NCBI GenBank assembly: GCA_050084515.1
Contig: CM114271.1
Location: 27,652,001 to 27,716,000, forward strand
Direction of reading: 5' to 3'
Source: Blasia pusilla
Taxonomy: Eukaryota
Length of the DNA: 64,000 nt
Below the pieces are notes generated by a model, which made no database searches, had not been told where the DNA came from, and was given only the letters and a program-made list of their open reading frames with translations. Position 1 is the first letter of the stretch. Every line of letters starts with the position of its first letter. The position numbers and the translations under genes are program-made. Positions 15,000 to 64,000 of the stretch are shown piece by piece.

Positions 15000-17557
15000 A
15001 GAAAATGTATAGTATAATGAAATTAACACCTACTTTGGATGCAAGTTTGAAGTAGTGACTATATAACATTTGCTTCTAGTGGCAACTTGGCATATACAAA
15101 TGTGAGTAGTGTAACATTCTTCATAAAATCTTTGAAGCAATATGTCACCTTGGTAAAGTTGGCTAGTGTTGAGCGAGGTGATGCTCACACGTGGTATTTG
15201 CATACTGAAGAGTTATAAATTTTGCTACTGAGAGAGGCAACATGTAATATGAGAATATCATTATGATCTTGCAACTAGTCCAATTTGCTGAAGGGCATTT
15301 AATACACTTCAAATGGGAGAAACGAAGTTTGTTCTTGATATGAAATAGAATTTGGATCGGATTGAAGTGATACAAAGGCTGCAATGGGATGAAAATGCTA
15401 AAATGGTGGCCTACAATAAGGAAGCCTCGACCAGATATACTAAAACAAAAGTATGTAGAAAAAATGATAAGTATACATTGCGAATAGATATTATCCATGG
15501 TGAATAGTAAGACTTGATTTCAATGTTTTGGTTTTTTAAAGCTTATTTTTTTCTATAATTGTTTGTCGGTTTTCTTAGTTCCTATTATGGTCAATGTAGG
15601 TTGAAATGGATATTTAGATGTACAACCATATCCAAATTGTTAACTTGGGCGTCCCAAAACCAGAGCAAGGATGTATTAATAATAATCACTACATATATGA
15701 AAGCTTGGGTGCATATGGAACTTTTGTATTTGAGTTTAGCAAAGAGAAGAAGAATTGTCAATTTGGGATAGCTCTTGATGGGATTAAAAAAATTTCCAGA
15801 AAATCTAACATATGGTCAAAATATTTAGTATTTTTGGTGAATTATACTTTGCATCTACGATTCTAAACCAAGAAGTTATTTTTGTGATAATATCTTTGAT
15901 TACACTTGGCAAAGAGAGTATTGATGGAAAAAATGTCAACACATTCCTACTTCATTTGTTATGAGAGTTTGAAGATTTATGCAAAGGAATCTTATTTCAT
16001 AATAAGTTTTACAAATTATGGCTATTGGAACTTTAGTTTGAGTCTTAATGTGCATATGGAATCATATTTTGATATGAGCACGATGGGAAGCATGGTTGTG
16101 GTATATGTGGACCATGAGTCAATTCAAATTTCTCTAAGTTTGTTAGAAATCCTAAATATGGTTATCCCCGTCGTTACCTCCCAAAAAACCATTCATGGAA
16201 GATTTGTAGATACATCACATATTTGAATGGTATTGAATAGCTTAGACAAACCAAAAAAAAAGGTCGTTGAATGGTCAAAGGATATAAACTTTATAATGAG
16301 AATGGAGTTTGATCAAGGGGACAAGAGTGAAAAAGATAAGCATTCTCTTTGATTTTTCTTATTGGACATTATACCTTCTTGTTTTCTCTTGAAAAAAAAA
16401 ATTAGAATGTACTCCAAAGTTTGATATAACTATTTTGTAGTAAAGGCATTTTAAAGTTCCTTTATCAATTTCCACCATCTTCTCATTTGGAATACAATAG
16501 ATGCTATGCACGATGAGAAGAACGAAACTAATAATTTGGTAAGGATTTTGTGGGGAGTTAAAGATACAATATAAGTGAGGAGAGATATGGAGGCTCGTGA
16601 ATTTTTTCTCATTTTGTATTGTACAATCACGTCCTACAAGGCCCTAGGGGTTCTTGAAACATGGTGTTTTTTATTATCTCCATATCGAGGAGATGAATGC
16701 AACTATATTCAAATTTGAACAAGTGAGCGCCAATTGGATATTGTGGGGATTTGCGCAAGCATGTGGTAAATCAAAAGATAACCTTTAAAATTGAATGCAA
16801 AAGTTTATAATTCAGAGATTTTTTTAAAACTCTACGAAGATATCAAAGATTGTGGTTCCTTATGTACAAATATTCCACTTCATTTAAGTTTGAATCTTAA
16901 ATGGAAATGGGATATTTAGTCATAAGGAATTACAATCTTCAAATCAAGTATGATATATTCATTGTGCATTTTTTCATCTATGAATTAAAGGGAGGAAAAA
17001 TTCCTCAATATTATCACTTAATTAAATGGAGCATGGAAAATGCACCTACGTCAATCGTGAGGTATGACATGTGAGAACGAGTGTGACTATACTTGGTGGC
17101 GACACTTCTTCAACATAATGATTTGCGGAGAAGTGCAAATGAGCTCTTAAAGGAGGCGTGGAGCTGAACTTATGCTCTAGAGCTAGATAGGATAGAGGTA
17201 CCATGTGCACTAATAGTTTAAACATTAGCACCCTTAGACATCATATCGATTGTGTAGTAGTATTCCCAAGAGGATGTACGTCTATTATATCTCTTGGGAA
17301 GGATTAATATTACTTTGGTTGAAGTGATGCACATCATAATGGGAGTACAATATTACTCATATGTTGAGAGGGATGAGATTGCACGAAGAGTCTTATTGCA
17401 CCATATGTCAAGGCTAGTCCAACAACATTGTAACTACAACTTTATGTTTGCTACTAGGGGATATTAACCTCCTTCGTGGTCGAATATTTTATGTTCAGGG
17501 GCACAGGATGTGGAAAGCATCATGAATAGGTAAAATTCCCTTGTTGGTGATAGGATT
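15000..17557 (+). mobile_element. Decayed CACTA/En-Spm transposase (Tnp2/Transposase_21) remnant #1
   Basis: Broken frames give EFSKEKKNCQFGIALDG..VFLVNY (~15730-15860) and IDAMHDEKNETNNLVRILWGVKDT..VRRDMEAR (~16497-16600). These resemble the Tnp2 motifs RNVRLGLATDG and DVMHIEKN. Boundaries approximate. Confidence 0.7.
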
Positions 17558-20900: not shown

Positions 20901-21654
20901 CTTGCCAATGGAGATAGAGTTGAAACTCTCGATGGAGAATGTCTCACCATTGATAGGTGAGAAGTTATATAGAAAGCTTGTGGGCAATTTGATATTTTTA
21001 TGCAACACAAGACCAAACATTAGCTTTGTTGTAGAAGTGTTGAGTAGGTTCTCAACTAAGCCTAATGAGAATCATTGGAAGGCAGGGATGCATGTGTTCA
21101 AGTACATCAAAGGCACTATTGAGTATGACATCACCTATAGAGCATGGATTAAAATAACAACCTTTTGTCATTCAGATTGGGCAGGAGACTCACATCCTCA
21201 TAAATTTGTTTTGGATTATTGTTTCTTGGTGGGATCATGTGTGGTAACATGGGTCAGCAAGAAGCAACAAAGAGTGGCTCTTTCTTCTACCGAGGCAGGA
21301 TACGAGGCGGCTTGTTATGCTTCTTGTGAAGAAATATGGTTGAGATGGATATTGGAGGACATAGGAGAAGCACTAGAAAGTGCTACTATGATGTGGTATG
21401 ACAATTATCAAAGTTGCATTGCCATAGCACATAATTATGTGTTTCATGCTCGTAGAAAGCACAAAGATATCCAACATCAATTTTTTCGTGAGTTAATCCA
21501 GAGAGAGGTTTTGAAGCTAGTATATTGTCCAACAGAGGATATCCGTGCAGACATCTCTACCAAAGCCTTGAGCGGAGATTAACTTCAACAACATCTGAAG
21601 GGACTTGGCATCGGTCCAAGACAATAGTTCACATGAGACTGGATATTGAAGGGG

Positions 21655-22091
21655 TGTTGGATTCTCAACATCCACTTCTCTCAACATCATATATTTGATC
21701 GTCCTCCTTATATGAGAAGAAGCTTAGATTAAGGATTTCGACTTTGACGTCGAAGGAGTCATAGTAATATGACATAGGTGGTTTTTGGAGTAGCGCTACT
21801 AGGATTATCTAATCCTATATTGCATCAAGGTGCGGGGCACTCTTATGCAAGGGGGGTCTGGGGAAAAAAATTATATAAATAGAAACAAAGAAAAATAGGT
21901 TTAAAACCCTAGTTTCTTAAGTAGTGGAATAGTCAAAAGCCGCGGCCGTAGCGCATTCTTGTATGTCGATTTATCTCCATTTTCAGGTCCCATCGAAGGT
22001 CTTTTATGAGCGCACGGACGGACTAGCCCACTTTGTATCTCCAAGATTTGTAATACATTTGAGTGATTTCATCACATTATGTTTTCTCACA
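21655..22091 (+). repeat. Copia 3' LTR
   Basis: Direct repeat of 17558-17994, TG...CA ends, preceded by a polypurine tract. Confidence 0.9.
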
Positions 22092-25000
22092 GGATGGCCA
22101 TATGAGGTCATTCTTTGGGGGATGGGGAACTTGGTTTGCATGACCAAGATCGGCCATATTTTGGGGGATGTTACAAGTTGTTTGACACTTGTAGACTATG
22201 CATGCACATTCACTAGGGTATATTTTGGAGAATGTCCCATTCTTAGGTGATACTTGAGCACGAGTGAGGATAAGTGTGTATCAAGTGCGGTCATAGATAG
22301 AAACGGTAGTGATGTTGGATGTGACGAGTGTTGGATCATGCGCACATTGTCTACAATTGTGATGGAAAAACATGTTATCATCGTAAGTATAAAGGAAAGC
22401 TAGCTTACGATGGATTTGAGAGACCATAACTTCTCATATTGGATGCGGTCTTAGATCCATAAGGGTGATCTCACGTTGTTATTTGCGAGGATGCGATATC
22501 TTTGGTGTTGGCCAATGGGATGGGCCAAGAGAGGGTAATTTTTTCTATATTGATAAGTTTTTTGGCATCCCATGCTTTCTTTCTAAGTAGGGCAAGATAT
22601 GAAATAGAATGAGTAGGTACATATACTAGTGGAGCCCAAGGTTGACGATCAAGGGTGAGTCATGAGATTCTCTTCGAGCATGGTGATGGTGCCTATGATG
22701 GCATATGCATAACGTAATAAGTGTTGGATCATGCTAGATAGACATGTAAGTAAGATAGACATGGTCTATCTTACTTGGATGTTTGGTTATGGTTTAACTT
22801 AGTAAAGATGAATGACATCCACTTTGTAGCATAACATCCTTTGGGACGGGGAAGATACATGCTAAAGGGGTGATGATGATCATTATTGGAAATTTACAAT
22901 TTTCTAGTTATCGTCCCCCAACATGGGTCCACTTACAAGGGATGGTAAAACCCCTCTCCCCGATCAACTAGTGGTGTGATGCACTTGGTGGTGGACTCTT
23001 TGGCCTAATCGCATATGGAGAGCATATGCAACATGAATAACTAAGTCTATGGCGCCCACGCTATAGAGAACCTAGAAAACAAGTCATGATTGTGGCTCTA
23101 AGGAGGAAAGACTTTGGTGTGATCTACCAAAGTCAAGACATAGATTAAGTAATCGTGAGACTAGGAAGGGGGGAAAAACTAGCCCATAACTAATTTTAGG
23201 TACTTTCTTGACATTCCCCGCCAAGAAAGTTTTAAACCTTGGGACCAAGCATCAAGTCAAAGGCAAGAAGCAAGGAATACATGAGTAGTCTAAATGGGCG
23301 AGATGCCCCAAAATTAGTCATTAAACATGATGGCCAAAAAGACAACCATGAGAGGTCAAGTGAGGAGTTAAGACGTATGCTAGTCAAGAGACACTAAAAG
23401 CTCACATCCAAGCTCCGAAATGCATTGGGAGAACCGATAATTGAATAATCTATACAAAGCCTCTTCCAAGCCATCTGAATGAATTATTACTCAAACGCTG
23501 GTCCGCAAGTCGAGAACTGTATTTGGATTGAATGCAAAAATTAAGGGTTTGAGGGGAACATTGGGGAATGTGGGATTCCAATGGAGAACCCCAAAATTAC
23601 CTATAGGGGGGAAAACTCTCTCTCGCTACCCACAAAAGTCCTTGAACCAATAACGGATCTAGTTGTGTTTCGGGTTTGAGTTAAGAAACACATCTTAAGG
23701 AATTAGCCAACATGCTCTGGTATAGGCAAGTGATTTGGGGAGATTTTTCAAGGCTTGGGTAAGAGGCTACATAGAGAGATGATATGCTTTTGGGGAGACT
23801 TGACATGCTTAGTGTTTGGTAGTTTCTTGACCATCTATGGAACACATAATTGGTTTAGTCTTTGGGACTCAAGTATTTCCCTTGCAAAGTTCAAGGTTGA
23901 TAGTGCCTTAGGGAAAAGCTAGGAGAAGTAGAGATTGGACTCTACAATGGCACATACTCGAATTGGCAAAGAAAACCTCAAAATGTGCAACCAGATCTTA
24001 CAACTAACATGATGAGGGGGGTTTTTTTTAAAATTCTTTCCTTGATCATTAAAAATATTAATTCTTATCATTTTCTACCGCATATTCAGCTCCATATAAA
24101 AGATTTGCTTAATTATTGACCAACAAATTATTAATATATGTTTAACACATTAGGGCCAAAGATGCCTTATTACGTAGATATGTACCTCAAACCGCTTTTG
24201 GAGGAGTTATTCGCCTTGTGAGAGGGAGTTTGTGTCGTGGATACAAGCATCCACTACCTTGAAACATCAAGGGCCTCTAAATAATCAGATATTTTATTGT
24301 AGATAACCGTCACTCTCCATCTTGGATAGTTGTGCACCTCTCCTCTATTCATTCCTAACATGATCTAATTGTGAGTTTTGATTGTACATGGTTAGGTTAC
24401 ATATTAAGTTTGCAAGTTTCGGGAAAGTTAGCATCCCCAACATCTAGACTTTGGTTGGAGGTTATGTATTGAGGAGATTTGAGAACCACCATTTACGTGA
24501 GTGCGGAAAATTATTTGCCTTACAGCCATGAGGGTGAACCTCGTAGGAGCCAATGGATAATGATGATGGCCTTTATACTATGATGTACACAGATTGGTCA
24601 GTCTAGGAGGATGTGTGTGTAGGGATGGAATATTGCGTAATGGATTTGGAATCAAGCGGGATTCATTCCTCAACATATTGTCTTATTGAATGTGAGTAGT
24701 ATCCATTACGAGGTTATTTAGAAATTCAAATGCATGTGGTGACCTATGTTTGGGTGTGTACTTGTTGATGGAACTTCTAACATAATCTTGTGGATTGCCT
24801 TAAAACCATATGCATGTAGGTCGTGGATTGCGAGGATCCAATGAACATTGAGGGTAATATTATGCACTTATTGATGGACCAATTTTTGTCCAAAGTGTCA
24901 CATCTAAGTAGCCGATAGGCCGAGATCTATCGTGGATAGGGCGTAGGAGCCAACGGACTATCTTGAGTGTAACTTTGTCCCACAGTGTCGGATGAGGTTG

Positions 25001-28000
25001 AGGATAGGTCCATTGCGTCAAGAACGTCGTTTCTGACGACTTTCATGTTGAGGTCTTTTACAACCGGGTGACTTGTTGACCAAGTCACCTGCCCCTGGTA
25101 ACCTGTGCGCGCAGGTTACCAAGGGAAGGGCTATTTTTAGGGTTTGAGCCTTTTGGCTCTTCCCAACCTATATAAGAGAGGAAGATGGCTTTCCTAAGCC
25201 ATCTTTCTCATGTTGGGCCGTTGGAGCACCTCCCTTGTATGTGTGTGAGCTAGGACTAGGGTGCTAGCGTCCGGATTCCTTGATAGCACAGGGTGGACGA
25301 GGCTCGATATGCCGATGTAGATTGAGGAGTGGAGTTTTAGGCCGGGTGTGCCGTTTTTACTACTCTTTATTTTTACATGAGAAAGATGTCGGGGGTGGGA
25401 ATTCGTTGTTTTGCAGGTAGGCAAGCGAGTTGCCTTGGTCGGAGCCCCGGAGCGTGTGTGTGACGTTGTGTGTCATTTTTTCTGTTCGGAAGGCCGTGGG
25501 CGGAAGCGCTGCCCGTTTTTCTCAGATTTTTCTGGTGCGGATTGATGGGGGACAGCAGCCGAGTGTAGCGTGTGGTGGGGCGTCGGGTGTACGCAAGTGG
25601 AGGCGTCGAGAGAGAAGGAATAGGCAGGTTTGGGTCTTGCAACCGCCGGGGGGCTGTCAAGTAAAGGCGGCTAGAGTTAGGTCGCGAATTTTAGGGCATG
25701 GCGTGGACGGGCTGGGCTCGTGACGGGCGCAGACGGCGAGGGGCGCGGACGCCGCACCCCCCCCCGCATTTAGGGCCCAAGGGGCACGCATAGGGCCGCG
25801 GTCCAATTTCTTCCCCCCTCTCCAACGTGGTAGCACCGACGGCGGTCGGACAATTGTCGCATACGTGGTTGGCAGGACAGACGAGGTTAGTTGGGCGAAC
25901 GTGAGTTGAGATTTGCCGGACATGAGTGGGAGCCGACCAGGGTGAGTCGCGTTACATACATGATGTTTTGGGGCGCGACAGGGTTGCGAGAGTTTACGAT
26001 GGAGGGGCAGTGTGCATGATGCCGACGGGTTGTCCGCATCTGTTGATGGGAGGATCGATGTGTTGGTCGAGGGGAGTGTTATGTGGCGGAGATTGTCATA
26101 TCATGTGGAGGAGTGCATATTGACGGTGCAAAGTTGAGGGCGTGATCAGGTTACCCATTCGAGTCCCTTTTCCCGCACTTGTCGCGGTGTGATTGAGAGT
26201 CTTTGGGTATCAAGTAGTAGCCGGTGCTAGATGGGTGCGATGATGGTGACGAGTGTAGATTCTTTTCATGTGTAGCATGTTGGTGGATATCTGGGCGGTT
26301 GCCGAGTAGGGGTCGCGTGTATGACCCGAGAGTGTGTCGCTAGGTTAGGTGAGTCGGTTGGGAGGCTCATGGTGAGCCCGAGTGTTGAGCGTGCGTGAGG
26401 CCATGAATGTCATCACGGGATTGGCGTTAGCATAGGTGAGCTAGTGAGGCATGTGGGAGACTCGGTGAGTCCGAGTGCTTGAGCGGGGTGAGACAGGGTT
26501 TGTCATCACGGCGTTCTTCCAGGGTTCGGAAGAACGGGTAGTGCGAGCGATGGTAGTGTTGTGACACGAGTGGAGTGAGATACCGAGGGGTTACTAGTGA
26601 GGAGCTCTGCGACATCCATCCATCCCGGATCGTCATCATCATGGACATCGGGTCCGTGACGAGATCACCAACAGAGATGATGAGTACTTGGCGAGGAGAT
26701 TGCGACATGGGCCATCGGGGCATGCGTCGTTTTTCGGGTGCGATGGGCACCATCGACTTAGATGATTTCATCCAGGAGTTCGACACATGGTGCGACTTCC
26801 GGGAGATACGGACCCGACACGGTTCAACCCTTTCATGGCATGGAAGGGGTTGTTCCAAAGACTTGGAGGGTCCTCCGATGGATGACTACATGGAGTTTCG
26901 ATCACTATATTCAGTAGAGATCGATGCTTGGAGGATGTATTGGGCTCCAGGGTATGTGTCCACTAGTGGTCGCGAGGCATATGATGGGATTATGAGAGGA
27001 GAGAGACCCACACCATCAGCCCAGAGACTAGATGGAGAGGAGGGCAGTGAGACAGGCGATGTGGCAGAGACCTCTGGTGGTAGAGGGCCACCCAGCTTCA
27101 ACCCCACAGTGGAGTTCTTCCGACAGTTGGGGAAGAGCTACCAGGGCGTACGCACCGACAAGCTGAAGAGTCTATAGGATTTTCAGCGATGATCAGGTGA
27201 GAGTCTGAGAGAGGCATTCACATGCATGAGGAGGCTGATCATTGCTACGTTTGGAGTGACTGAGGCGCAGTCAGTCCAGTATTGGTACGGGGTTCTCGAC
27301 CGAGAACTACGGAGGAGAGTCCGAGATGCGGTGCTGATTCCCACAGCGGAGCCCACATTGAAGGTGGTCTTTGAGTTGTCTGAGCGTATTGAGCTCAACA
27401 TGAGTGAGGAGCAGGTAGTGACCGCTGGATTTTCTCGAGAGACGACGGGTCCACGAGCGGCGGTGACCCCACCGGTGCCACAGCGAGCACCGGTACCACG
27501 GGAGCGGGCCAGCGTGCCTAGAGAGCAGGGCGGGTACCGTGAGCCTATGAGGCAACGACCCGCACCTACATATGTTGCCCAGCAGGGACCGGTGTGGTCT
27601 TGTTGGGCGTGTGGAGGGGCCCATAGGCGAGAGGCGCCACAAAGCATGGGAGAGGACCACAGCGCCTCCGATTGCGAGAGCCACAGAGGATGGCCCCACC
27701 CAGCACCAGTGTGACCATTGCCACAGATATGGTCACACTAGGGATAGATGTTTTGACCTTTGCCGAGGGGCACGCGTAGGAGGTAGGCCGAGGCCTGGGG
27801 CGGCCGCCCAGGAGGAGGTCGGGAGTTCTTCTGGGCGTGGTGGTAGAGGACCACCACCGGCCAGAGGAGATGGAGCAGAGCACGAGCCGGCGCTTCTCTA
27901 ACGCATCGATTAGTTGGAGCAGGAGGATTGCGCCATGCGATGATGCGGCTTAGGAAGGCACGGAGTGCGGCGGCTAGTGTGACTCGATCTCTACCTCTTA

Positions 28001-29379
28001 CCTTGACCCGGTGAGGCGTCTCCAACATGGGATTCATGTGTAGTGCGGCCAGGTTGAGGCATTGCGATGGTGACTCGGGGTGTTGCGAGAGGCACCGAGC
28101 CATCGAGAGGTGGAGTTGAGATTGACCCACTAGAGGGGACCGATGGGCGGCGAGCCAGGGTTCCACGATCGTTCACATTGTCGGAGGCACTACACACACC
28201 ATCGATGGTGCCTCGGCGACCAGCGGTGCCTATAGTTCAGGCACCTACGTCGGCGTCATGAGGAGTTGGAGTGAAACTCCTATCCGGCTCAAGTGGAGTC
28301 GGTGTCGACTATAGTGTTGGAGGTGGCCACTAGAGTGAGTCGACTCGCTATTTTCCGCCTTAGAGTTGGCGGCGTTGGGAGTTGGACCGGTGAGGTGTTC
28401 CGGTTGGCGCCACGTTGTGTGAGCGTGGAGAGATGGCGCTTCTTGTTGAGAGGTAGTTGAGGAGGTGGTGGACTTGCCCTCGAGCGGTGCTTGGGGCGTT
28501 CCCACGAGTCATGGCATGCGGCGGTGGCGGTTGGTAGATATGCCACTCGACCGGCCATAGAGCGGCAAGATGGTGACACTGGAGTAGTGTTCTTGGATGT
28601 TTAGCGGAGTATTTCGCTTGGTTAGTCCGACGGGGACAAGTATACCCAGCCAGCGCGTCCTACTTGATTCGGGAGCGCAACCCTTGATGTTAGGGAAGGC
28701 GGCGTGTTTAGCGTTGGGGTTACGGAAGGCCGACATTGAGCCTTGTCCCTTCCAGATACAGACCTCGATTGGGGGCGTATCACCCACTCAGTATATGACT
28801 CGACAGGAGATTGTTGTGAGAGTCCAGCCAGAGCATGCGACGGATAGTGCTATGGTGCGCACACGTGCGATTACGACACCAGCTGAGTAAATGCGATGTG
28901 TTGGTGGGGAGTACAGTGTTATATCCCCTAGGATTCATCCTTGACTTCTGGGAGGAGACCGTTGCTTATCGGCCAGGATGGCGGTCAGGTGACGGTCGGA
29001 TGAGTCAGTTACCCGTGCAGTTTGCGGGACGAGGTGGTCGATCACGAGGCGAGTCTGTGACCACGTTGGCGGCTTTCACAAGTAGTGTTAGCTGGCCAGA
29101 GAGTTGTTGAGGGGAACGCACATGCGGAGGATGTTCCGAGAGCGGATAGTCCCACGGAGAGACATGCCATGGCGGGTGTCTCTTCCCATGTTAGCAATGC
29201 CTCTTCACCATTATGGGGTACGACTCGAGAGCTACAAAGGAGTGCCGACGACCTCGTGAGGCAGGCGTGGAGTCATGTTTTTATCCCAGAGCAGCGAGAG
29301 TCATGTGGCGATTGGGCTCTTGTAGTGGAGACGATGACCCCACTAGATATCACACCTGTTGTGTGGCAGTGCCCAGAGG

Positions 29380-31370
29380 AGGGTGTTAGGGTGTTAGATC
29401 TCTTCGGAGGGATTAGCACTGGATTGGTGGCCATATTGCAGGCGGGCATACGGGTGCATCAGTACCTTTATGTGGAGAGAGATGAGACCGCGCGGCGAGT
29501 ATCATTAAGTCATGTGGCGAGATTGGTCTAGAGGTATCCTGAGTTGTTGTCGGTATCTGCGATGCGGGGATACCAAAGATACGCCACCCGCCGACATATC
29601 TTTGGTGGGGCGCAGATCTGGATAGAGTTGGCACCATTCATTTGGTGATTCTTTGGATGGCCATGTCAGGGTCATTCATGAGCTGGCCGAGGATTTGGAT
29701 TGCAGGATCCGAGGTCAGGGATGTTTTGGGAGATGCTGCGAGTAGTATGACACTTGCAGCAGAGTCAGATATGTTCTCCAACGTATATTTTGGAGAACGT
29801 GCCGTTGTTGGGAGATACTCGTGCACGTGTGATGACGAGTGTACATCGGTGAGTCTGGTTGGGACCGGTGTGTTGTTAGATGGCGAGAGTTGGGTCACGT
29901 GCCCATCGTCCTCGATGGTATCGAGTTCGTCCATCGTGGTGGACGAACTGATACTATCGAGAAAATCTTGAAGTCGAGCCTACAATGAAGTCGAGAGCAC
30001 CACATCTCACGGTGGATGCTATTTTTGGACTCGGGCGTCGATCTCGGTGGTGACACGCGATGATAGACCACCGTTGGCCACGGCCAATAGGGTGGGGGAG
30101 TTGAGGGCAGCCTTACCTACGTTGGTGAGCTTCCCAGCATCCCATGCCTTTCGTCAAGGAGGGCCAGGCATGATTTGCGATGAGGTGACCGAAGTATTGG
30201 AGGAACCTACAGCAGATGAGCGCGAGCGCGCCATGGGGTTCACTACCGGTACTACGGCGGTGCCAGGGATGATTGAGGCATCACGGAGACAGGTGTTGGT
30301 GTCGTGCGCCTACTCTCCTTGAACGTTAATCTTGTTTGTTGCAGAATCGTGCGTTCAGTAGGTCACGCTCTCAGCGCTGATCTGCATCCAAACACGCACT
30401 TCGGTTAGTCGGGTCTTGGATCAATCAGCGGGATTACTTTTCGAGTTCTCATCTCGGACTCTCTCTTCAAGCTCAACCTTCCTAGTTTCGCGGTTTCCAA
30501 CACGGGCAAGTCTCGAAAGACTTGGGACAGACTTTCTGGTCAGTTCAAGAATCTGAAACGACGTTTCCCGCCTAGCGGTTCCAACTGTCCGATGAACATC
30601 CAACGAGTTCCTCACCAAGACTCGCACGAAGTGAATCTCGGGTTGGAATCCAAGTGTGGCATACAAAGTCCACTCCCTTGGATCAGGTTTGGGTTTGGGT
30701 TTCGCAAACTCCCGTTTCATCCCGTGCCTCTGAAACGCCGTTTGGCGCCCAAAGTGGGGTTTCGTTTCCCGAGACATCTCAAAGAAGGTACTCCCCTTAC
30801 TAGTACTTCTGGGGATCTCCGGGGGCCCCCTACATTTAGAGAAAGACACCCGGACCTCTCCAATTGGCCCTCAACCCGATTGCTCTCTGAATCGTTTTTG
30901 GCCAATATCTCAGTGTGTACTTATGTGTTTGCTGAGATCTTTGGTGCGTTGGAAGCGTCTCAAGATCAGCTTTCCAACGCGCCCTTACTTGTCCCGAACT
31001 CATCTCGGAGCTCAACGTTATGGTCCTAAACACAGTCAGATTCTCCCAAAAGCTAGCCGTGTTCCAAACTAGTTCTCACCTCTTTGGCAACCAACCTCCA
31101 AGACTCAACTCATCTCAAGTCTCGGCTCGCGTTTGGTCTAGGATTTCCTGGTCGTGACCACTAACGCATGAAACGCACAACTCTGTTCCACATTTCGTCT
31201 CTTAGGCTTTTCCAAGAGACTCTTCCAAACGCCTCTCCAAAGCGCAAACCTCGCGGCGTGAGTTCCTTTGAGTTTTGATGTTTTGCTTGGCGCGTATTTG
31301 GTGTTGTTTGGTTATGAGGGTCGTGAAAGTTGGGGCAGGCGATGGACCTCAATTGTCTCACATGGATAGT
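29380..31370 (+). pseudogene. DNMT3-like cytosine-5 DNA methyltransferase domain inside retrotransposon pol, interrupted by a solo LTR
   Basis: Motif I VLDLFGGISTGL (29391); II YVERD; IV GWPCQGHS (PC at 29661-29666); GLQDPRSGMFWE; VI YILENV (ENV 29793-29801); VIII VGSRAHRPR..WWTN (29889-29948); IX ERERAMGF (~30217); X RRQVL|GQAMDLNCL, rejoined after removing 30300-31333. Contains stops and frameshifts. Confidence 0.9.
30300..31328. mobile_element. Solo LTR (1029 bp) inserted in DNMT motif X
   Basis: Ends TGTCGTG..TCGTGAAA (decayed ..GACA). Perfect 5-bp TSD GTTGG at 30295-30299 and 31329-31333. Same family as 35301-36062 plus 37692-37915. Confidence 0.88.
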
Positions 31371-34300
31371 CAACCTAGGTATGGTTGAGCAGAGACGGAT
31401 GCGAGTGTCATCCATGCCGTCACGTCCACGAGTTGGACCACTGCCTACAGGGTCTGTACAGGCATTGGCTGGGGGCGAGACGAGGAGAGATAGGCACCCA
31501 TGGACTTCCTGGGACGTCGTTCGAGCAAAGAGTGCAAAGCCGGCTAGAGTAGCACATGTTCATTTTTCGGATGTGGAGCATGGTGTAGGAGGTCAGAGTG
31601 GAGTGGCTGTTGCGGAGGTGGCTAGGGTTGCCACATAGCAACCAAAGCCGGAGGTTGCGTCCTCTCCGAGTGAGGTCACGATGGAGACTTGGGGAGCCTG
31701 TGATAGGTCTCAAGTTGATAGGAGGAGAGCGACGGCGAGTTCATAGGTTTCTGAGAGGGCATGTCAGTTGTTTTGCCTTCAGTATGAGAGACTTGGGTAT
31801 TTGAAGGGTCAGAGATACGGATTGAGTTGGCTAGTGATACGCCGATCTTTCGTCGACCCTACTGAGGTATTCCGATATGGAACGAGCCTTGATTTAGAGC
31901 AGGAGTCGAGGACTTGTTGGAGGCGGGACTTGTGGAGTTATCACATGGGGAGTATGCATCGCCCTGCAGTCATGCGCGAAGAAGGATATGTATGGAAATT
32001 GGACGGATAGGCGGATGTGTGGAGATTACCGTCCTATCTATCGAGGAGTCTACCGTCGCTGCACGAGCAGTCGATCGGTATGCCATGCCTACTCTGAGGA
32101 GATCTTTGATGCGGTAGGGCATGCAAAGATCTTGAGTTTTTAGATCTCCGTGTTGGCTATCATCGACTTCCTATCAGGTTGGAGGACAGGAGAAGAGAGA
32201 CGTGCAGGGGATAGATCGGTTCGGGAGAGATTGCTTTATCGATGGCGGTTCTTACCATTTGGGTTGAAGAACGCGCTCATGGAGTTTCGAGAGAGTGATG
32301 GATAGGATTTTGGATGGCTTGGATTTTGTACGATGTTACATAGATGATATTCTTATCTTTAGTTCCACGGTTGAGGAGCATGAGCAACACTTGGAGGAGG
32401 TGTTTCGGCGATTGCAGTTACATGGACTGAAGTTACATCAGGCAAGTGCAGATTCTTTCGGAGCAGATTGAGTACTTGGGACACACCATATACCCGAGTG
32501 GGTTAGGCGTTCAGCAGAGACGAAGGTAGAGGCTATTGTGCGTAGATTCCACGCCCTATAGATGTGAGTCGAGTCCGAGCATTTCTTGGACTGGCGAACT
32601 TCTATCGACGGTATGTCAAGGGTTTTAGTGCGATTGCAAAGTCTTTGACCTTGTTGACGAGACTTGATCAGGTGTGGTTATGGGGAGATGATCAGGAGCG
32701 AGCATTTCAGGAGCTCAAGTACAGGTTGACGTCCTCACCCATTTTACAGAGACCGGCTAGGGGTCGCCCATTCGATTACATACAGTTGGAGCATGTTGGG
32801 TCTAGGAGCGTGCTTACTCGGAGGGATGACAAGGAGAGGGAGTTCGTTGTGGCTTACGAGTCGAGTCGATCGAACAACATTGCAGAGGCGAGAAATCTGG
32901 CTCCTACGAGGAGAGTGCTTGGATGCAAGTGTGAGCCGTGGCACATTTTAGGTGCTATTTATTTGGCAACCCTTTCACACTTATCATCGATCATCGGCCC
33001 GTTGAAGTGGTTGATGGAGTCCGACAAGCTTACGGGAAAGCTTGCCAGGTGGGCTCTATTACTACAGGAGTATGAGTTTCAGGTGGTTCATAGGCCAGGT
33101 CGGCTGAACCAGGATGCGGATGGGTTGAGCGTAGCCCATGTCCGAGTCAGAGAGACGACATAGGAGCTCGATGGCACAGAGAGAGTGATGAGGAGATGGT
33201 GCCCGGTTGGCATGCATCTACCTATCTTTGTTGGTTGAGTATGGTAGGTGATGACTCCAGTGGTGGGATTGGATGATGAGTCTTTGGATCAAGAGGTTAG
33301 TGAGGAGGCGACAGGTGGTCGTGATATCCATGACGACGTGGAGGTTGTGGAGTTCTTGCGCACTGGCGTCATTGCGAGTACAATGAGTGCTAGGGAGCGG
33401 GATCGGATCCTACAGAGAGCCAAGAGGTTTAGGTGGGAGGGGACTCACATTTTGCGGGTATGGGGAGATGGTAGGATACGAGTGGTACCTCATGCTTCCC
33501 AGCGAGCACGTGTAGTGCGACATGCCCATGAGGAGTTGGGACATTTCGGAGTAAAGCGTACTTACAGCTTACTCCAGGTTCAGTATTGATGGCGCGGCAT
33601 GCATACTGGGGTACAGCAGTTTGTGGCCAGATGTATGGTATGTGGTAGAGTGCGAGCATCCTTCAATCCTCCCACTCCACAGTTACATCCTTTGCCGATT
33701 ATGGGTTTAGGTTATTGGTGGAGTTTAGACTTTGCGGGACCTTTGCCATTGACAGGGCGTCATCATAGGTACGTGTTGGTCATGGTGGAGCATTTCTCCA
33801 AGTGGATTGAGTTGGTGGCACTACCAGACAAGGCGAGTGAGGGAACAACTTATGCGTTTCTAGATCGTGTGCTTAGTCACTTTGGTGCACCGGCGGAGGT
33901 ATTGATTGACCAGGGTATCGAGTTCATGGGAGAGTTTCAGGCCTTGTGTGATCAGGCGCTGATAGATCACCGCACCACGTCCAAGGATCATCCTGAGGCG
34001 GATGGATTGGCGGAGAGAGTGGTACAGACGGTGAAGAGAGGATTGCGCAAGTATGGCTTGCAGCGGGGACAGTTGAGGGAGTGGGACCTACAGTTGCCAT
34101 GGTTGGCTATGGGTTATCGCTTTAGTCGGCAGGCATCCTTGGCATCATTTTCACCGTACTTTTTGCTCTTTGGGAGAGATCCAGATTTACATGCAGCGAT
34201 TCGACGTGACATGGCGGAGGTGTTAGATCTTGATGATCCAGATGTGTGGGTGCAAGCATGTTCTCAGAGGGCAAAAGTTTTTCGTAGAGTTATGCCTATG

Positions 34301-35300
34301 CCTTTGAGAACTTAGCTATTGCCCAACATAGAGATACATTGAGGTACGCGACCATTCGTGGAGGAGGTTATCATCCAGGGATTAGGAGGTTTCATCCTGG
34401 AGATTACGTGTATTTACAGCAGGCGGCACCCACGACGCTATGTTATGTCTGACCCCCCCTCTTGATGTGGTTCCCACGGGACGATGGATGTGTCCGAGAT
34501 GTGTATAGGGTAGTAGGTCATGTTAGAGAGATGTGATATTTTCTATCTGGAGTTAGGGGGATCCAACAGCCAGCTAGGGGGGCGGTTGTGTGATCTCCAT
34601 GTATATGTATGAGTTCATTTTTGTACATGTGTGGATCGACCCGTGTGTGGGGAAGATCGGTGTTGTGTGGTGTAGATGTGATGAGCGATGTATGTTGTGT
34701 AGCGATATGCATGCGCACGACAAAAGAGACATGGACTCTCATAGTCGAGCGTGCGAGTGGATGGATGTGCATCCAAAGATATGGTTGGTTGGTGCAAGTG
34801 GCTTATGCACCCTCCCATTATCTTCGGGGAAGGCTGATGGGAGGATGTAGAGAAGGGTGGAGCAAGGTATTTTACTTGAGTAGACTAACTCAATTCGGAT
34901 GTTTGCACAATATGGTGTATATTTGTGATCAACCTTTCTAGATAATGACGTAAGCAATTGGGATAGGGGAATAAGGACCCACGATTCCATTGATTGATAT
35001 ATGATTTGCTACCCACATCCATGAATAATCCATAATGGATATGGGTAGCAATATCCATTAGTACCATTAGTGATTTGCACTAATGGTATTAGGTCTTTCA
35101 TATACGAGATGTCAACTTATTTGAAGTGCTTAAATAAGACCCTAAGTGTTCACGAGATCGCACAAAAGTAATTATATGTTTTTTTGATGTCTCTTTGGAT
35201 AATCATTGGTAGACGGTTATATATCAAGGAGAAATTCATTGAGGATTGCCCTCGTACGGATCAAGGTTAAGGTCATTTTGATTGTGACACACATGGAGAG

Positions 35301-62074: not shown

Positions 62075-64000
62075 TGTCATGACCATACGGATTATGTCGT
62101 AGAGTATAGTGTGCTAGTAGAGGCCATACCTTTTGTAGGGCCGTAGTGTCTAGGTAGAGATGCGGTTTCATACATAGGGTTGGGGGTTACTTAGTTGAGG
62201 ATGACTTTTCCAATAGGGCCTACTCTTAGGTTGGAGGATATAGTGTGGAGTGCATTCAAAGAACAGTTAGTTCTTTGAGTTGAGCTTGTTGCGTTGGGAG
62301 TTAGCCTTGGTAGTGAATAGAGCTCTTGGCTATGGTGGTTCCCGCAAGCTTCAACTTGGATTCTTCCATCATGGAGTGGGTTTGGATCGATTGTATGTGA
62401 TTCTATACGTGTTTTATGACAGTAGGTCTTTCACGGATTTCACTCAAAGAAGTGGAGTAGATCGATGGTAGCTTCGATCGTGGATCAGTAGGATCTGGTT
62501 AGGGCTGATTGTGTACTCAGCCGTGGATGTTTGTGGCTTGTGGCATATGTTGGAGGTGGGAATCTGGTGCGTGGTTGGCTTGGAAAGAAGCACCTTGCTG
62601 AGAGTTTTCCAACGCGCTTTAGATCGCCGGATTTCGTCAAGGGAGTTGGAAGTTATCAAGGATTGAAGATTCTGGTTCGTGTTTGACGGTTTTTTGATGT
62701 GGAGAGCTTGGAATGCGGAAGCTCTGTTAAAGTTCATCGAGATCGGGTGAGAGGTTCCTGTTGCTACGTGTGTTGTGATCTCATATGAAGCTATCTGCTT
62801 GAGTGTGTGGAGCGTTGCGGATTTGTGTGTGCATGAATCTGGGCGGAAGCGCTGTCGGATTTGCGATTTTGGAGGTGTATGGACAACAAGTTTGTCTGAT
62901 TTTTAGCTCGGAGTACAGGGCTCGGTTGTAGCTGATTTTTTGTGGAGAGATAGCTATGGTGGCCAATTGAATTAAATTTTGGTTGAGGATTTTTGGAGTA
63001 ATTGCTGATCGAAATTTCGTGGACTAGCTCAAGGTCTAGCTATGGTGGACAACACATTGGAGGGGCTGGTTGGTTGGTGATTCGTCCGTTGTTGGAGATG
63101 CCTATCTCGTTAGGGGCGCCCTGGTTGGGCCTCTCTCCATAGCAAAGCGTGGCATGTCTCGAGCATTTCTTGGCGTTTTGAGGCTTTGAGGCAACTCGAG
63201 GCAACTCATGGTAGCTCGGGGCGAGTGGGCGTGGGAGGTGGAGTAAGGAGCAAGGAGCAAGGAGCAAGCAAGCAAGCTTGCTGCTTGCTCCTTGCTTGGG
63301 TGCGAGTGCGACTAGCACGTCATCGACCAGCGGCGGAGTAGCTATTGCGTTAGAATTGTGTGGTGGGTTCTATGGATTCAGGGGGCGCCACGTTTGGTGG
63401 ATTGTGTTACCTTGATTTCCATTTGTGATTGGAGGGTTGTCGTTGGACTTCTTGTGTTTGGATCCCCTCCATCGTTGTTTCTTGCTTGCGCGCCCATTGT
63501 TAGAGTTGACGCTGATTTCCAGAGTAGTGTTACTCTTGTGTGCTACTGGTAGTGAGGTTGGAGTGATGACCAGTAGACCGTGGGAGGCTTCTTGTGGTGA
63601 TGACATGTTAGGTTACCTACACCCATAGCTAGTAGAGCTAGAATAGTACAGCGACATCGACGTCACTTGGTTACTTAGTGGTGGTGATTTGGTGGTGGTG
63701 CGGCATTGGCGTTGGTCATCACGGAGCTGTCTGGTGGTCTGGTTGGGGACCGTGGTGCGGACAGTGGTGGTTTTACACAGAATGGATTGAGGTATCGGCT
63801 ACCTTTTCCACTTCCGACGGTTGATGAAGAGGAGGACGAGGGTATTTCAAACACCGAGTCTTCTACGTTTTTATCGAGTGTTACAGCTCCATTGATTTGG
63901 GACATGGATGGGATATATGGGGCCATGAAGGGCCCACGACGATACTCGGGTGCAGTGAGCACCATTGGGTCAGAGGACTTCATTCATGAGTTTGATACGT
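62075..64000 (+). mobile_element. 5' end of a second Gypsy element related to the DNMT-bearing element (runs off the window)
   Basis: Putative LTR 62075-63605 with inverted termini TGTCATGACC..GGTGATGACA. At 63925-64000, MKGPRRYSGAVSTIGSEDFIHEFDT matches GMRRFSGAMGTIDLDDFIQEFDT at ~26720-26790. Confidence 0.75.

What the first reader, a model, noticed from the sequence alone, without database searches (positions are those of the whole stretch)
24896..34722. Gypsy retrotransposon carrying its own cytosine-5 DNA methyltransferase in a land-plant genome
Seen: on one strand, in order Gag(CCHC)-protease-DNMT-RT-RNaseH-integrase-PHD, with C5-MTase motifs I, II, IV (PC), VI (ENV), VIII, IX and X recognisable. 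There are no apparent introns and base composition matches the flanking pol. Known: ordinary plant Gypsy elements have no such domain. As I recall, DNMT-bearing retrotransposons were described in dinoflagellates and charophyte algae; I do not know of a characterised embryophyte family. Inference: the DNMT was part of the Pol polyprotein. It could methylate the element's own cDNA or target site, for example as camouflage, self-regulation or rewriting of local chromatin.
Basis: partly seen in the sequence, partly recalled or inferred. Interest (0 to 1): 0.95.

Follow-up and report, generated by a model that had tools for sequence, protein, structure and literature searches.

The report
Dead bryophyte Gypsy retrotransposon carrying DNMT3
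This is a decayed copy of a very abundant moss-and-liverwort jumping gene whose polyprotein includes its own DNA-methylating enzyme, a kind of element so far described only in algae.

Summary
Window 24896-34722 (+) is one insertion with a 4-bp target duplication (AAAG). Its domain order is Gag(CCHC)-protease-DNMT3-like methyltransferase-RT-RNaseH-integrase-PHD remnant.

Read through its stops with X, the DNMT passes Pfam PF00145 (31.1 bits, cut-off 22). Its best solved relatives are DNMT3A.

This copy is dead. It has 7 in-frame stops in the DNMT and 18 in the 1021 codons aligned from protease to RNaseH. It also has several frameshifts, a nested 1029-bp insertion (30300-31328) and about 350 nt missing from the PHD.

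The DNMT is not private to this copy:
- The same protease-DNMT-RT order occurs in Marchantia, Calypogeia, Sphagnum, Closterium and Mesostigma proteins.
- It occurs in 104 metagenome stretches and in uninterrupted ORFs of 2188 and 2138 aa.

There is no LTR pair. The ends are two different repeats, A and B. Relatives show A-coding-B-A-B, the DIRS-like layout published for KnitGypsy-Dnmt3 of Klebsormidium.

The host gene in the window is closest to liverwort orthologues. My literature searches found no described land-plant family.

Verdict: a real new member, in land plants, of a known kind. What the DNMT does is inferred, not shown.

The parts
24892..24895 (.). Left copy of the 4-bp target-site duplication (AAAG).
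   Evidence: The same four bases follow the element at 34723-34726. A 4-bp duplication is present in 5 of 5 family elements with both ends in hand.
24896..25374 (+). Terminal repeat A. It begins TGTCA. Its 3' edge is good to about 3 nt.
   Evidence: Read depth rises here from about 1-3 to more than 50,000 summed word depth. In many contigs of other copies 25372-25375 is joined directly to 34585-34598, which is the A-to-B junction. Relatives begin with the same TGTCATGACC-type start.
25375..26715 (+). Leader between repeat A and Gag. No domain and no recognisable tRNA primer-binding site.
   Evidence: No Pfam hit. The bin 25604-26004 has almost no depth in other copies, so this stretch varies within the family.
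26716..28225 (+). Gag, with the CCHC zinc knuckle at 27710-27751. At least one frameshift.
   Evidence: Collinear with residues 9-494 of Marchantia P0008 (50% and 37% identity). The knuckle was read from the translation.
28603..29101 (+). Aspartic protease (DSG at 28666-28674) and its C-terminal part. One frameshift.
   Evidence: tblastn of P0008, P0016 and P0015 (53-60% identity). Relatives P0338 and P0083 carry Pfam Asp_protease_2 at the homologous place.
29103..30299 (+). DNMT3-like C5 methyltransferase, motifs I to X (first part). It has 7 in-frame stops (5 TGA, 2 TAG) and a frameshift near 30047.
   Evidence: X read-through P0001. PF00145 at 31.1 bits against a cut-off of 22. Best solved relatives are DNMT3A. 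Collinear with relatives.
30300..31328 (-). Nested 1029-bp insertion of another repeat family, probably a solo LTR in reverse orientation. Its 5-bp duplication GTTGG lies at 30295-30299 and 31329-31333.
   Evidence: Searches show the duplication. Relatives of the insert lie at 35358-36063 (inverted) and 37692-37915. RNA reads from other copies carry ...GCTCTGATACCAC immediately before its left edge.
31334..31584 (+). End of the DNMT: the rest of motif X (GQAMDLNCL) and the C-terminal tail.
   Evidence: P0008 residues 1181-1261 resume here, in the frame expected once the insertion is removed.
31682..33457 (+). Reverse transcriptase (YIDD at 32337-32348) and RNase H, with stops and frameshifts.
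   Evidence: P0016 residues 693-1190 align here. Pfam RT_RNaseH_2 and RT_RNaseH hit 32546-33163. The RT-RNaseH of P0016 is closest to Ty3 among solved structures (E 4e-48).
33248..34422 (+). Integrase: H2C2 zinc domain, DDE core (33713-33994) and C-terminal GDYVYL region.
   Evidence: Pfam Integrase_H2C2 and rve at 54.1 bits. 76.5% identity to Sphagnum fallax P0030 over 33671-34066. P0096 and P0033 align to 34422.
34425..34505 (+). Remnant (C-terminal half) of the PHD finger, followed by the Pol stop codon. About 350 nt are missing compared with moss relatives.
   Evidence: Pfam PHD at 18.8 bits, below the cut-off of 24, covering profile positions 25-47 only. Window 34437-34542 corresponds to L029 9736-10192. 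The full PHD in L029 scores 39.8 bits.
34576..34584 (+). Polypurine-like tract (AGGGGGGCG) just before repeat B.
   Evidence: The same CTAGGGGGGCGAG tract precedes repeat B in L029 and L011.
34585..34722 (+). Terminal repeat B. It begins (G)TTGTG and ends CGCACGACA.
   Evidence: 79-85% identical to the ends of repeat B in L029 and L011. The junction sequences are conserved. It is the joint partner of repeat A in other copies.
34723..34726 (.). Right copy of the target-site duplication (AAAG).
17117..17521 (+). Older, AT-rich copy of the same family, part 1 (the region before and at the start of the DNMT).
   Evidence: P0008 residues 828-962 at 36% identity. It is cut off by a Copia insertion.
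22096..22597 (+). Older copy of the same family, part 2 (DNMT motifs IV to VIII).
   Evidence: P0008 residues 976-1132 and P0016 residues 464-639. 69% DNA identity to 29655-29910.
63904..63999 (+). Start of Gag of a third copy of the family. It runs off the end of the window.
   Evidence: P0008 residues 1-32 at 81% identity.

Best explanation
Window 24896-34722 is a dead copy of a very abundant Ty3/Gypsy-type retrotransposon family of bryophytes. A single Gag-Pol polyprotein of this family carries a DNMT3-like cytosine-5 DNA methyltransferase between the protease and the reverse transcriptase, and a PHD finger after the integrase.

Shown here:
- The domain order.
- The DNMT3 affinity of the methyltransferase.
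- The same architecture in liverworts, Sphagnum and streptophyte algae, including uninterrupted ORFs.
- Constraint on the DNMT at least as strong as on the RT.
- Two different terminal repeats (A ... B here; A-coding-B-A-B in relatives) instead of a pair of LTRs.
- A 4-bp target duplication, as a DDE integrase makes.
- The decay of this copy.

Inferred:
- This copy lost its second A and one B by recombination between the two B repeats.
- In active members the DNMT travels with Pol and methylates the newly made cDNA, or the insertion site, at CG. I give this about 40-50%. It rests on the published de novo CG activity of the dinoflagellate retrotransposon DNMT3 domains.
- The PHD finger steers integration to chromatin whose histone H3 tail is unmethylated at K4. 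I give this about 40%. It rests on its nearest solved relatives and on my recollection of what those relatives bind.
- The outcome would be quick, heritable silencing in gene-poor DNA, which lets the family accumulate there.
For: Identity:
- PF00145 above its cut-off on the X read-through.
- DNMT3A is the best solved relative for both the window copy and intact Marchantia P0016.
- The RT-RNaseH of P0016 is closest to Ty3. The window has an rve integrase core.

The DNMT belongs to the family, not to one copy:
- 31 proteins, mostly Marchantia, Calypogeia and Sphagnum, and 29 more with an intact query.
- 104 of 219 candidate metagenome stretches encode relatives.
- The window is collinear with Gag-protease-DNMT (P0008) and with protease-DNMT-RT-RNaseH (P0016).
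- Intact ORFs P0083 and P0366.
- Two further copies of the family lie in this window.
- Depth over the DNMT is 6,900-15,000 in run X1 and about 1,800 in X2, against 0.6-3.5 in the unique flank.

Constraint:
- Window against 25 moss-type loci: non-synonymous difference 0.29 for the DNMT, 0.42 for RT, 0.34 for RNaseH and 0.33 for protease. Synonymous sites are near saturation at about 0.72.

Phylogeny:
- The window's DNMT sits in a 20-row clade with liverwort and Sphagnum copies, support 100/98.
- On a 124-row DNMT tree the two domain orders need only one change.

Ends:
- A-to-B joints in other copies.
- B-A-B in 4 of 15 loci that hold a B repeat, and B alone in 6.
- A 4-bp duplication in 5 of 5 elements with both ends.
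- The published A-coding-B-A-B layout for KnitGypsy-Dnmt3 (figure legends).

Function, from the paper text:
- SymbioDIRS-Dnmt3 domains methylate CG de novo in yeast.

PHD:
- Full PHD in moss relatives.
- Nearest solved PHDs are CHD4, PHF12, DPF3, KDM5A/B, PHF21A, ATXR5, UHRF1 and AIRE.
Against: - This copy cannot make protein. It has 18 stops in 1021 aligned codons, frameshifts, a nested insertion and a truncated PHD.
- All 25 long metagenome copies also carry 4-21 stops.
- Among those closely related copies, dN/dS for the DNMT is higher than for RT or RNaseH (median 0.61 against 0.41 and 0.36).
- The two RNA runs laid show only 172 and 185 reads over 12 kb, mostly 95-99% alike and therefore from other copies. 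There are none in the DNMT bins 29213-30014.
- In the 2018 paper the Klebsormidium Gypsy DNMT gave no methylation in yeast. The authors call that result inconclusive.
- I have no host DNMT3 sequences and no Klebsormidium element in my trees. The direction of capture and the kinship to KnitGypsy-Dnmt3 are therefore untested.
- No primer-binding site was recognised.
- The loss of A2-B2 by recombination is a model. The A-coding-B form could instead be a primary product.
- The histone preference of the PHD rests on recollection.
Confidence: 0.85

Rival explanations
1. The DNMT segment is private to this copy. It could be a captured host gene fragment, a nested insertion with its own boundaries, or an assembly chimera. 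Sibling elements would then lack it.
For: No long read or contig spans the whole element in the runs laid. Raw ORF fragments gave no Pfam hit.
Against: - The same protease-DNMT-RT junctions occur in Marchantia, Calypogeia, Sphagnum and Closterium proteins and in intact ORFs.
- They also occur in 26 long loci, counting the window, that cover at least 900 of the 1190 residues of P0016.
- A second copy in the window has the DNMT.
- The DNMT bins are as deeply repeated as the RT bins to within about fourfold.
- Composition is uniform across the junctions.
Confidence: 0.02
2. This is an ordinary LTR retrotransposon. A plus B together would form one canonical LTR, and this copy simply lost part of each LTR.
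For: A followed directly by B exists at high copy number elsewhere in the genome. The A+B unit would begin TG and end CA.
Against: - In relatives the 5' end carries A alone. In 18 loci an A hit upstream of pol has no B next to it.
- The 3' end is B-A-B in 4 loci.
- The polypurine tract sits before the first B, not before A.
- Two precise deletions would be needed here, yet the 4-bp duplication is intact.
- The published Klebsormidium relative has the same DIRS-like layout.
Confidence: 0.05
3. The bryophyte family acquired its DNMT3 independently of the Klebsormidium KnitGypsy-Dnmt3. The likeness would be convergent, making this a new family rather than a member of that lineage.
For: - DNMT capture by retrotransposons is recurrent, as the title and text of the 2018 paper say.
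- Two domain orders exist in the green lineage.
- No Klebsormidium protein appeared in either word-based search.
Against: - Both share the combination of Gypsy-type Pol, unrearranged DNMT3 and the unusual A-coding-B-A-B ends.
- The protease-DNMT order is found across streptophytes, from Mesostigma and Closterium to bryophytes.
- On the DNMT tree that order forms one side of a single branch.
Confidence: 0.15
4. The DNMT-like domain does not methylate DNA in the element's life cycle. It might act on RNA, or serve only as a nucleic-acid-binding or structural module.
For: The Klebsormidium Gypsy DNMT and the SymbioLINE DNMT gave no DNA methylation in yeast, and the authors raise RNA methylation for the LINE case.
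Against: - The catalytic motifs are conserved across the family: the PCQ cysteine, ENV, and motifs I, VIII, IX and X (nearly invariant columns).
- The closest solved relatives are DNA methyltransferases DNMT3A/B.
- Related DIRS-borne DNMT3 domains do methylate CG.
Confidence: 0.2

Closest known systems
KnitGypsy-Dnmt3 of the charophyte Klebsormidium nitens (de Mendoza et al. 2018, PMC5890265; I read section 9, figure legends and passages)
   Same: - A Gypsy-type Pol polyprotein with an unrearranged, intronless DNMT3-like domain in frame.
- Terminal repeats arranged as in DIRS elements (A-coding-B-A-B).
- A streptophyte host.
- The DNMT is under purifying selection.
   Different: - The host here is a land plant (bryophyte), and relatives occur in Marchantia, Calypogeia and Sphagnum.
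- I could not see the Klebsormidium figure or obtain its sequences, so its domain order and direct kinship are untested.
- The family is very abundant here, whereas the paper says Klebsormidium has fewer copies than Symbiodinium.
- This particular copy is dead.
Chlorophyte Gypsy elements with DNMT and PHD: Hariotina reticulata P0033, Scenedesmus 'pol' P0053, and many unnamed metagenome proteins
   Same: The same set of domains: RT, RNaseH, DNMT3-like, DDE integrase and a C-terminal PHD. The DNMT is homologous, including the stretch before motif I.
   Different: The domain order is RT-RNaseH-DNMT-integrase-PHD, not protease-DNMT-RT. They lie on the other side of the DNMT tree.
SymbioDIRS-Dnmt3 of Symbiodinium (same 2018 paper)
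   Same: DNMT3-type domain inside Pol. A-coding-B-A-B repeats. Its DNMT methylates CG de novo in yeast, which is the basis of the mechanism proposed here.
   Different: It uses a tyrosine recombinase rather than a DDE integrase, has a different RT lineage, and its host is a dinoflagellate. The elements here make 4-bp target duplications.
Cellular DNMT3A/DNMT3B de novo methyltransferases
   Same: The order of catalytic motifs (I, IV PC, VI ENV, VIII, IX, X). They are the best-scoring solved relatives.
   Different: There are no PWWP or ADD domains. The domain is embedded in a retrotransposon polyprotein. The only chromatin reader is a PHD at the far end, after the integrase.
PHD-bearing Gypsy elements of Chlamydomonas (Gypsy-7a_cRei; passage read in bioRxiv 10.1101/2022.06.16.496473) and chromodomain-bearing chromoviruses
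   Same: An accessory chromatin-reader domain in Gag-Pol, thought to bias where the element inserts.
   Different: The passages I read mention no DNMT for those elements.

Membership tests
Ty3/Gypsy (Metaviridae) LTR retrotransposons | Pol domain order protease-RT-RNaseH-integrase, with a DDE (rve) integrase. | tested here: met
   RNaseH, Integrase_H2C2 and rve lie in that order. Protease and RT were placed by tblastn. The order is unbroken in intact relatives P0083 and P0366.
Ty3/Gypsy (Metaviridae) LTR retrotransposons | RT/RNaseH closest to Ty3-type enzymes. | tested here: met
   Marchantia relative P0016 gives Ty3 RT/RNaseH as its best solved match (4ol8 and 7q5b, E 4e-48 and 1.4e-47). The window's own RNaseH hits fall just under the Pfam cut-offs.
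Ty3/Gypsy (Metaviridae) LTR retrotransposons | Two identical long terminal repeats. | tested here: not met
   No direct repeat pair flanks the element. The ends are two unlike repeats, A and B. Relatives have A-coding-B-A-B.
Ty3/Gypsy (Metaviridae) LTR retrotransposons | Short target-site duplication and a polypurine tract. | tested here: met
   A 4-bp duplication in 5 of 5 elements. A conserved AGGGGGGCG tract lies before repeat B. No tRNA primer-binding site was recognised, and I did not search for one systematically.
DNMT3-type C5 DNA methyltransferases | C5-MTase domain with motifs in the unpermuted order I-IV-VI-VIII-IX-X, unlike plant DRM. | tested here: met
   PF00145 at 31.1 bits against a cut-off of 22. 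The motifs were read in order and from the HMMER alignment to DNMT3A.
DNMT3-type C5 DNA methyltransferases | Closer to DNMT3 than to other C5-MTase classes. | tested here: met
   Among solved structures, DNMT3A (1e-5) is ahead of DNMT3B and 3C (1e-3), the chain 4onj 'DNA methyltransferase' (0.05) and M.HhaI (0.07). No tree with host DNMT1, DNMT3, DNMT5 or DRM references was possible.
DNMT3-type C5 DNA methyltransferases | Intact ORF and catalytic activity. | tested here: not met
   This copy has 7 in-frame stops, a frameshift and a 1029-bp insertion in the domain. Activity cannot be tested with these tools.
KnitGypsy-Dnmt3-like elements (Gypsy with DNMT3) | DNMT3 domain in frame within a Gypsy Pol. 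| tested here: met
KnitGypsy-Dnmt3-like elements (Gypsy with DNMT3) | Repeats arranged A-coding-B-A-B. | tested here: met
   Complete in L011, L027, L029 and L032. The window copy is A-coding-B, and A-to-B joints are seen in other copies of its genome.
KnitGypsy-Dnmt3-like elements (Gypsy with DNMT3) | Sequence kinship to the Klebsormidium elements. | not tested
   No Klebsormidium sequence was returned by any search. The paper's figure and supplements were not available.
DIRS-like retrotransposons | Tyrosine recombinase instead of a DDE integrase. | tested here: not met
   The window and its relatives have rve and Integrase_H2C2. Target duplications are present. That DIRS elements make none is my recollection.
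PHD finger | Complete Cys4-His-Cys3 domain passing Pfam PF00628. | tested here: inconclusive
   The window remnant scores 18.8 bits, below the cut-off of 24, and covers only the second half of the profile. The moss relative L029 scores 39.8 bits over the full profile.

The most novel reading that the evidence does not exclude
Gypsy elements that carry a DNMT3 'writer' and a PHD 'reader' could be an ancient, largely vertically persisting lineage of the green lineage. It would have one domain order in streptophytes (Mesostigma, Closterium, Klebsormidium, liverworts, Sphagnum) and another in chlorophytes.

In bryophytes the lineage would have reached very high copy number. It would do so by methylating its own cDNA or landing site and by integrating into H3K4-unmethylated chromatin. 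That amounts to a self-silencing, heterochromatin-building parasite.

Some proteins counted as plant 'DNMT3' in surveys are pieces of this element. It could also have exchanged DNMT3 modules with the host.
Probability: 0.2. Interest if true: 0.85.

Novelty: new member of a known kind. Interest (0 to 1): 0.62.

Why it matters
Cytosine methylation is the main way plants silence transposons, so a transposon that brings its own de novo methyltransferase is a paradox. It was first described in 2018 in algae that are hard to manipulate, and the role of the enzyme is still open.

- **Tractable hosts.** The same kind of element fills bryophyte genomes, including the model liverwort Marchantia polymorpha and Sphagnum. 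These plants have genetics, methylomes and mutants of the host methylation pathways, so the question can be tested there.
- **Annotation.** Proteins automatically named 'DNA (cytosine-5-)-methyltransferase' in Marchantia (P0011 and P0024) are fragments of this element. They would inflate counts of plant DNMT3 genes.
- **Unusual combination.** DIRS-like split repeats together with a DDE integrase and target duplications is an odd pairing that deserves mechanistic study.

Tried and rejected
- **Pfam on raw fragments.** 0 of 10 stop-to-stop fragments between 26557 and 31638 hit anything. This was a false negative caused by the stops; the X read-through hit.
- **LTR search.** Exact-seed repeats, self-BLAST of the window and a relaxed BLAST of the two ends against each other found no LTR pair.
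- **Whole genome.** None is held for this window. I could not count copies or look for intact ones in the organism itself.
- **Sequencing runs.** The look-up of sequencing runs listed no RNA holder. Organisms are coded, so it gave no taxon.
- **Loose-end lead.** I briefly read the loose letters before 24896 in RNA reads (agreement 0.65) as the end of repeat B at about 34804-34829. I dropped this once alignment to relatives and the duplication placed the end of B at 34722.
- **Protein Atlas.** The search with the DNMT part of P0016 returned only generic DNA_methylase clusters.
- **Missing references.**
  - No Klebsormidium protein and no named host DNMT3 came back from any search.
  - The cluster look-ups named only Marchantia, Calypogeia, Hariotina, Scenedesmus, Closterium and Mesostigma.
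  - My trees are therefore unrooted with respect to host genes.
- **dN/dS.** Among the closely related dead copies it is dominated by decay after insertion. I rely instead on the deep comparison, where synonymous sites are saturated.
- **Literature.**
  - Searches found no land-plant DNMT retrotransposon.
  - Two later papers mention only 'streptophytes (Gypsy-DNMT3)' or cite the 2018 work (passages).
  - Supplements were closed. Supplementary Figs 13-14 and the data tables of the 2018 paper, and the supplements of PMC12344493, might already list bryophyte copies.
- **Not attempted.** Structure prediction and complex prediction; they would not have changed the reading.

Full report
**What is there.**
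The stretch 24896-34722 stands out from its flanks by composition: about 50-60% G+C against about 40%. On the + strand it encodes, through several frames, the following domains.
- A Gag with a C-x2-C-x4-H-x4-C knuckle (27710-27751).
- An aspartic protease (DSG at 28666-28674).
- A cytosine-5 methyltransferase.
- A reverse transcriptase (YIDD at 32337-32348).
- RNase H and an integrase.
- The last part of a PHD finger (translations).

Pfam on the stop-to-stop fragments found only RT_RNaseH_2 and RT_RNaseH (29.4 and 24.0 bits, just under their cut-offs), Integrase_H2C2 (25.8 bits) and rve (54.1 bits). It found nothing upstream: 0 of 10 fragments hit.

The methyltransferase lies in one frame from 29103 to about 30047 and carries seven in-frame stops (five TGA, two TAG).
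- Read through with X, it passes PF00145 (E 2.1e-7, 31.1 bits, cut-off 22).
- Its best solved relatives are DNMT3A (E about 1e-5), aligned from motif I to motif VIII. They score ahead of DNMT3B and 3C, the chain 4onj and M.HhaI.
- Motifs IX and X follow in another frame.
- Motif X is cut at 30299/30300 by a 1029-bp insertion flanked by a GTTGG duplication. Behind it the frame resumes exactly.

**This copy is dead.**
- Aligned to the Marchantia protein P0016 (protease to RNase H), the copy has 18 stops in 1021 codons.
- The tblastn segments change frame at least five times between Gag and the end of the DNMT.
- About 350 nt of the region between the integrase and the end of the PHD are missing compared with moss relatives. 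Only profile positions 25-47 of the PHD remain (18.8 bits, below the cut-off of 24).
- CpG observed/expected is 0.79-0.89 in the element and 0.39-0.55 in the surrounding DNA. The surroundings include an older copy of the same family (0.45, 40% G+C). That fits progressive decay of methylated CpG.

**The DNMT belongs to the family.**
A word-based search with the degenerate DNMT found 31 longer proteins.
- The named ones are from Marchantia polymorpha (many 'hypothetical proteins' of 950-1330 aa), Calypogeia fissa and two Sphagnum species.
- The same search also found a chlorophyte protein.

Mapped back on the window, these proteins are collinear with it.
- P0008 runs Gag-protease-DNMT.
- P0016 runs protease-DNMT-RT-RNaseH.
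- P0030 reaches the integrase, with 76.5% identity over 33671-34066.

Pfam confirms DNMT, then RT, then RNaseH in P0016.

Uninterrupted environmental ORFs give the full order.
- P0083 (2188 aa): CCHC, protease, DNMT, RT, RNaseH, integrase.
- P0366 (2138 aa): CCHC, DNMT, RT, RNaseH, integrase.

Further support comes from four sources.
- A scan of JGI metagenome contigs with a profile of 11 relatives found 219 pattern matches, of which 104 encode relatives. 80 were kept. On the tree they group with Sphagnum.
- The window holds two more copies. One is old, at 17117-17521 and 22096-22597, and is split by a Copia element. The other is the start of a third copy at 63904.
- In Logan contigs of two DNA runs from different studies, summed depth over the element is thousands of times that of the unique flank at 24000-24800 (0.6-3.5).
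- The DNMT bins are included in that excess: 6,900-15,000 in X1 and about 1,800 in X2. This is not a copy number, but it shows a highly repeated family whose copies include the DNMT.

The rival readings of a private capture or an assembly chimera are therefore rejected.

**Selection.**
I compared the window copy with 25 long moss-type loci. Synonymous sites are near saturation (median 0.72).

| Domain | Non-synonymous difference |
|---|---|
| DNMT | 0.29 |
| Protease | 0.33 |
| RNase H | 0.34 |
| RT | 0.42 |

The DNMT is the lowest of the four. During the divergence of these lineages it was at least as constrained as the replication enzymes.

Among the closely related moss-type copies, which all carry 4-21 stops, median dN/dS is 0.61 for the DNMT, 0.41 for RT and 0.36 for RNase H. 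I read that as decay after insertion. It is nonetheless a result against strong recent constraint.

**The ends.**
There is no LTR pair. The read layout showed instead that in other copies position 25372-25375 is joined directly to 34585-34598. There are 15 joint rows shown and 21 more not shown, mostly in X1. A few are in X2, and one read in each RNA run shows it.

Two complete relatives explain this.
- L029 has repeat A at 1677-2017, coding sequence, then B (10238-10350), A (10353-10691) and B (10693-10805).
- L011 has the same layout.

The junctions are conserved between these loci and the window.
- A polypurine tract (CTAGGGGGGCGAG) lies before B.
- B starts TTGTG and ends CGCACGACA.
- A starts TGTCA.

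On that basis the window has A at 24896-25374 and B at 34585-34722. It lacks the second A and the second B.

Among the 15 loci with a B hit:
- 4 have B-A-B.
- 2 have B followed by a partial A near the contig end.
- 2 have a partial A plus B.
- 6 have B alone with at least 800 nt of locus beyond it.
- 1 is too close to the locus end to tell.

A 4-bp target duplication flanks the start of A and the end of the last B in 5 of 5 elements with both ends, in both layouts.

| Element | Duplication |
|---|---|
| Window | AAAG |
| L029 | AAGG |
| L011 | TCTC |
| L013 | TGTT |
| L010 | ATTA |

The simplest reading is that recombination between the two B repeats removed A2 and one B, just as solo LTRs form. 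That is an inference.

The layout 'A-coding region-B-A-B' is what the 2018 paper gives for DIRS elements. Its Fig. 4 legend says the Klebsormidium Gypsy-Dnmt3 has the same repeat structure with a Gypsy domain set. Here the integrase is a DDE enzyme and target duplications are made, so the element is not a DIRS.

**Two architectures.**
I classified 213 DNMT-bearing proteins in hand with phmmer probes. Two orders appear.
- Protease-DNMT-RT-RNaseH-integrase: Marchantia, Calypogeia, Sphagnum, Closterium (P0338, confirmed by Pfam) and Mesostigma (P0087, by phmmer only).
- RT-RNaseH-DNMT-integrase-PHD: the chlorophytes Hariotina and Scenedesmus, and many unnamed proteins.

On a DNMT tree of 124 rows (39, 57 and 28 unassigned) the two orders need a single change. 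Branch supports are 80 and 92 SH-aLRT. In a careful tree the window's DNMT lies in a 20-row clade with liverwort and Sphagnum copies, support 100/98.

There is no host DNMT3 and no Klebsormidium element in these trees. The root and the donor are therefore unknown.

**Host.**
The intronless ORF at 53806-54834 (-) is a manganese-dependent ADP-ribose/CDP-alcohol diphosphatase.
- It is closest to Marchantia (66%) and Calypogeia (67%).
- The next named hits are other land plants and Chara, at 54-59%.

The genome is that of a bryophyte, most likely a liverwort that differs from both.

**PHD.**
- The complete PHD of the moss relatives (Pfam 39.8 bits) is closest to the PHD fingers of CHD4, PHF12, MLL3, DPF3, KDM5A/B, PHF21A, ATXR5, UHRF1 and AIRE.
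- From memory, most of these bind the H3 tail unmethylated at K4. That is the basis for proposing that the finger steers integration to silent chromatin.
- PHD fingers are a known accessory domain of Chlamydomonas Gypsy elements (passage).

**Expression.**
- Two RNA-seq runs of the same species label gave 172 and 185 reads at 95% identity or more over 12 kb.
- Only 8 and 13 of them were 99% alike or better.
- They were mostly in the orientation expected for sense transcripts of RT and integrase, and in repeat A.
- None fell in the DNMT bins 29213-30014.

The family is transcribed at a low level from other copies. This says nothing certain about intact copies.

**Mechanism.**
- Shown: the architecture, the constraint, integration with a 4-bp duplication, and accumulation in a nest of transposons (three family copies, a Copia and other repeats within 64 kb).
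- Inferred:
  - The DNMT, made as part of Pol, methylates the cDNA or the landing site at CG. The paper showed this for SymbioDIRS-Dnmt3 domains in yeast. The Klebsormidium domain gave an inconclusive negative.
  - The PHD selects H3K4-unmethylated chromatin.
  - Together they give immediate silencing that host maintenance enzymes then propagate.

**Novelty.**
The kind is known (de Mendoza et al. 2018). I found no description of a land-plant family in six full-text searches. Two later papers speak only of 'streptophytes' while citing that work. Supplements were closed and may hold more.

I file this as a new member of a known kind. It extends the kind to bryophytes, including a genetic model, and it has a defined domain order that differs from the chlorophyte relatives.

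Noticed in passing
window 17558-22085: A Copia-type element sits inside the older DNMT-Gypsy copy. Its 432-bp LTRs (17558-17988 and 21655-22085) are 84% identical. It has Pfam SH3_retrovirus (19529-19942) and a weak RVT_2 hit (20770-21582).
   Followed up: partly
window 30300-31328; relatives at 35358-36063 (inverted) and 37692-37915: The insertion that splits DNMT motif X is a 1029-bp unit with a 5-bp duplication (GTTGG). RNA reads from other copies have ...GCTCTGATACCAC just before its left edge. From memory, that is the reverse complement of the common tRNA-Met primer-binding site, so it is probably a solo LTR of another family in reverse orientation.
   Followed up: partly
window 24896-34722; L029, L011 and L013 elements: The sense strand of the whole family is strongly G-rich over C (GC skew +0.24 to +0.28) and T-rich over A. 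This holds both in the window and in moss relatives (+0.26). The cause is unknown.
   Followed up: partly
proteins P0024 and P0011 (Marchantia polymorpha): UniRef names these proteins 'DNA (cytosine-5-)-methyltransferase'. Both carry the element's protease region in front of the DNMT, so they are retrotransposon fragments, not host DNMT genes.
   Followed up: partly
proteins P0033, P0053, P0096, P0116 and others (chlorophytes and unnamed metagenome sources): A large set of Gypsy polyproteins has the order RT-RNaseH-DNMT-integrase-PHD. One of them (P0077) has an added G-patch domain. I found no description of these in my searches.
   Followed up: partly
window 53806-54834 (-) and 55467-55910 (-): Host genes lie next to the transposon nest. 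One is an apparently intronless Mn-dependent ADP-ribose/CDP-alcohol diphosphatase ORF of 342 aa. The other is an exon of a clathrin adaptor small chain.
   Followed up: partly
window 25604-26004: This part of the leader has almost no matching contigs at 95% identity or more in either DNA run, although the sequence on both sides is very highly repeated. It is a hypervariable or copy-specific segment.
   Followed up: no
runs X7 and X10-X12: Several air metagenomes hold parts of the element at word shares of 0.11-0.23. I did not lay them, so this is only a lead that spores or fragments of the host are airborne.
   Followed up: no
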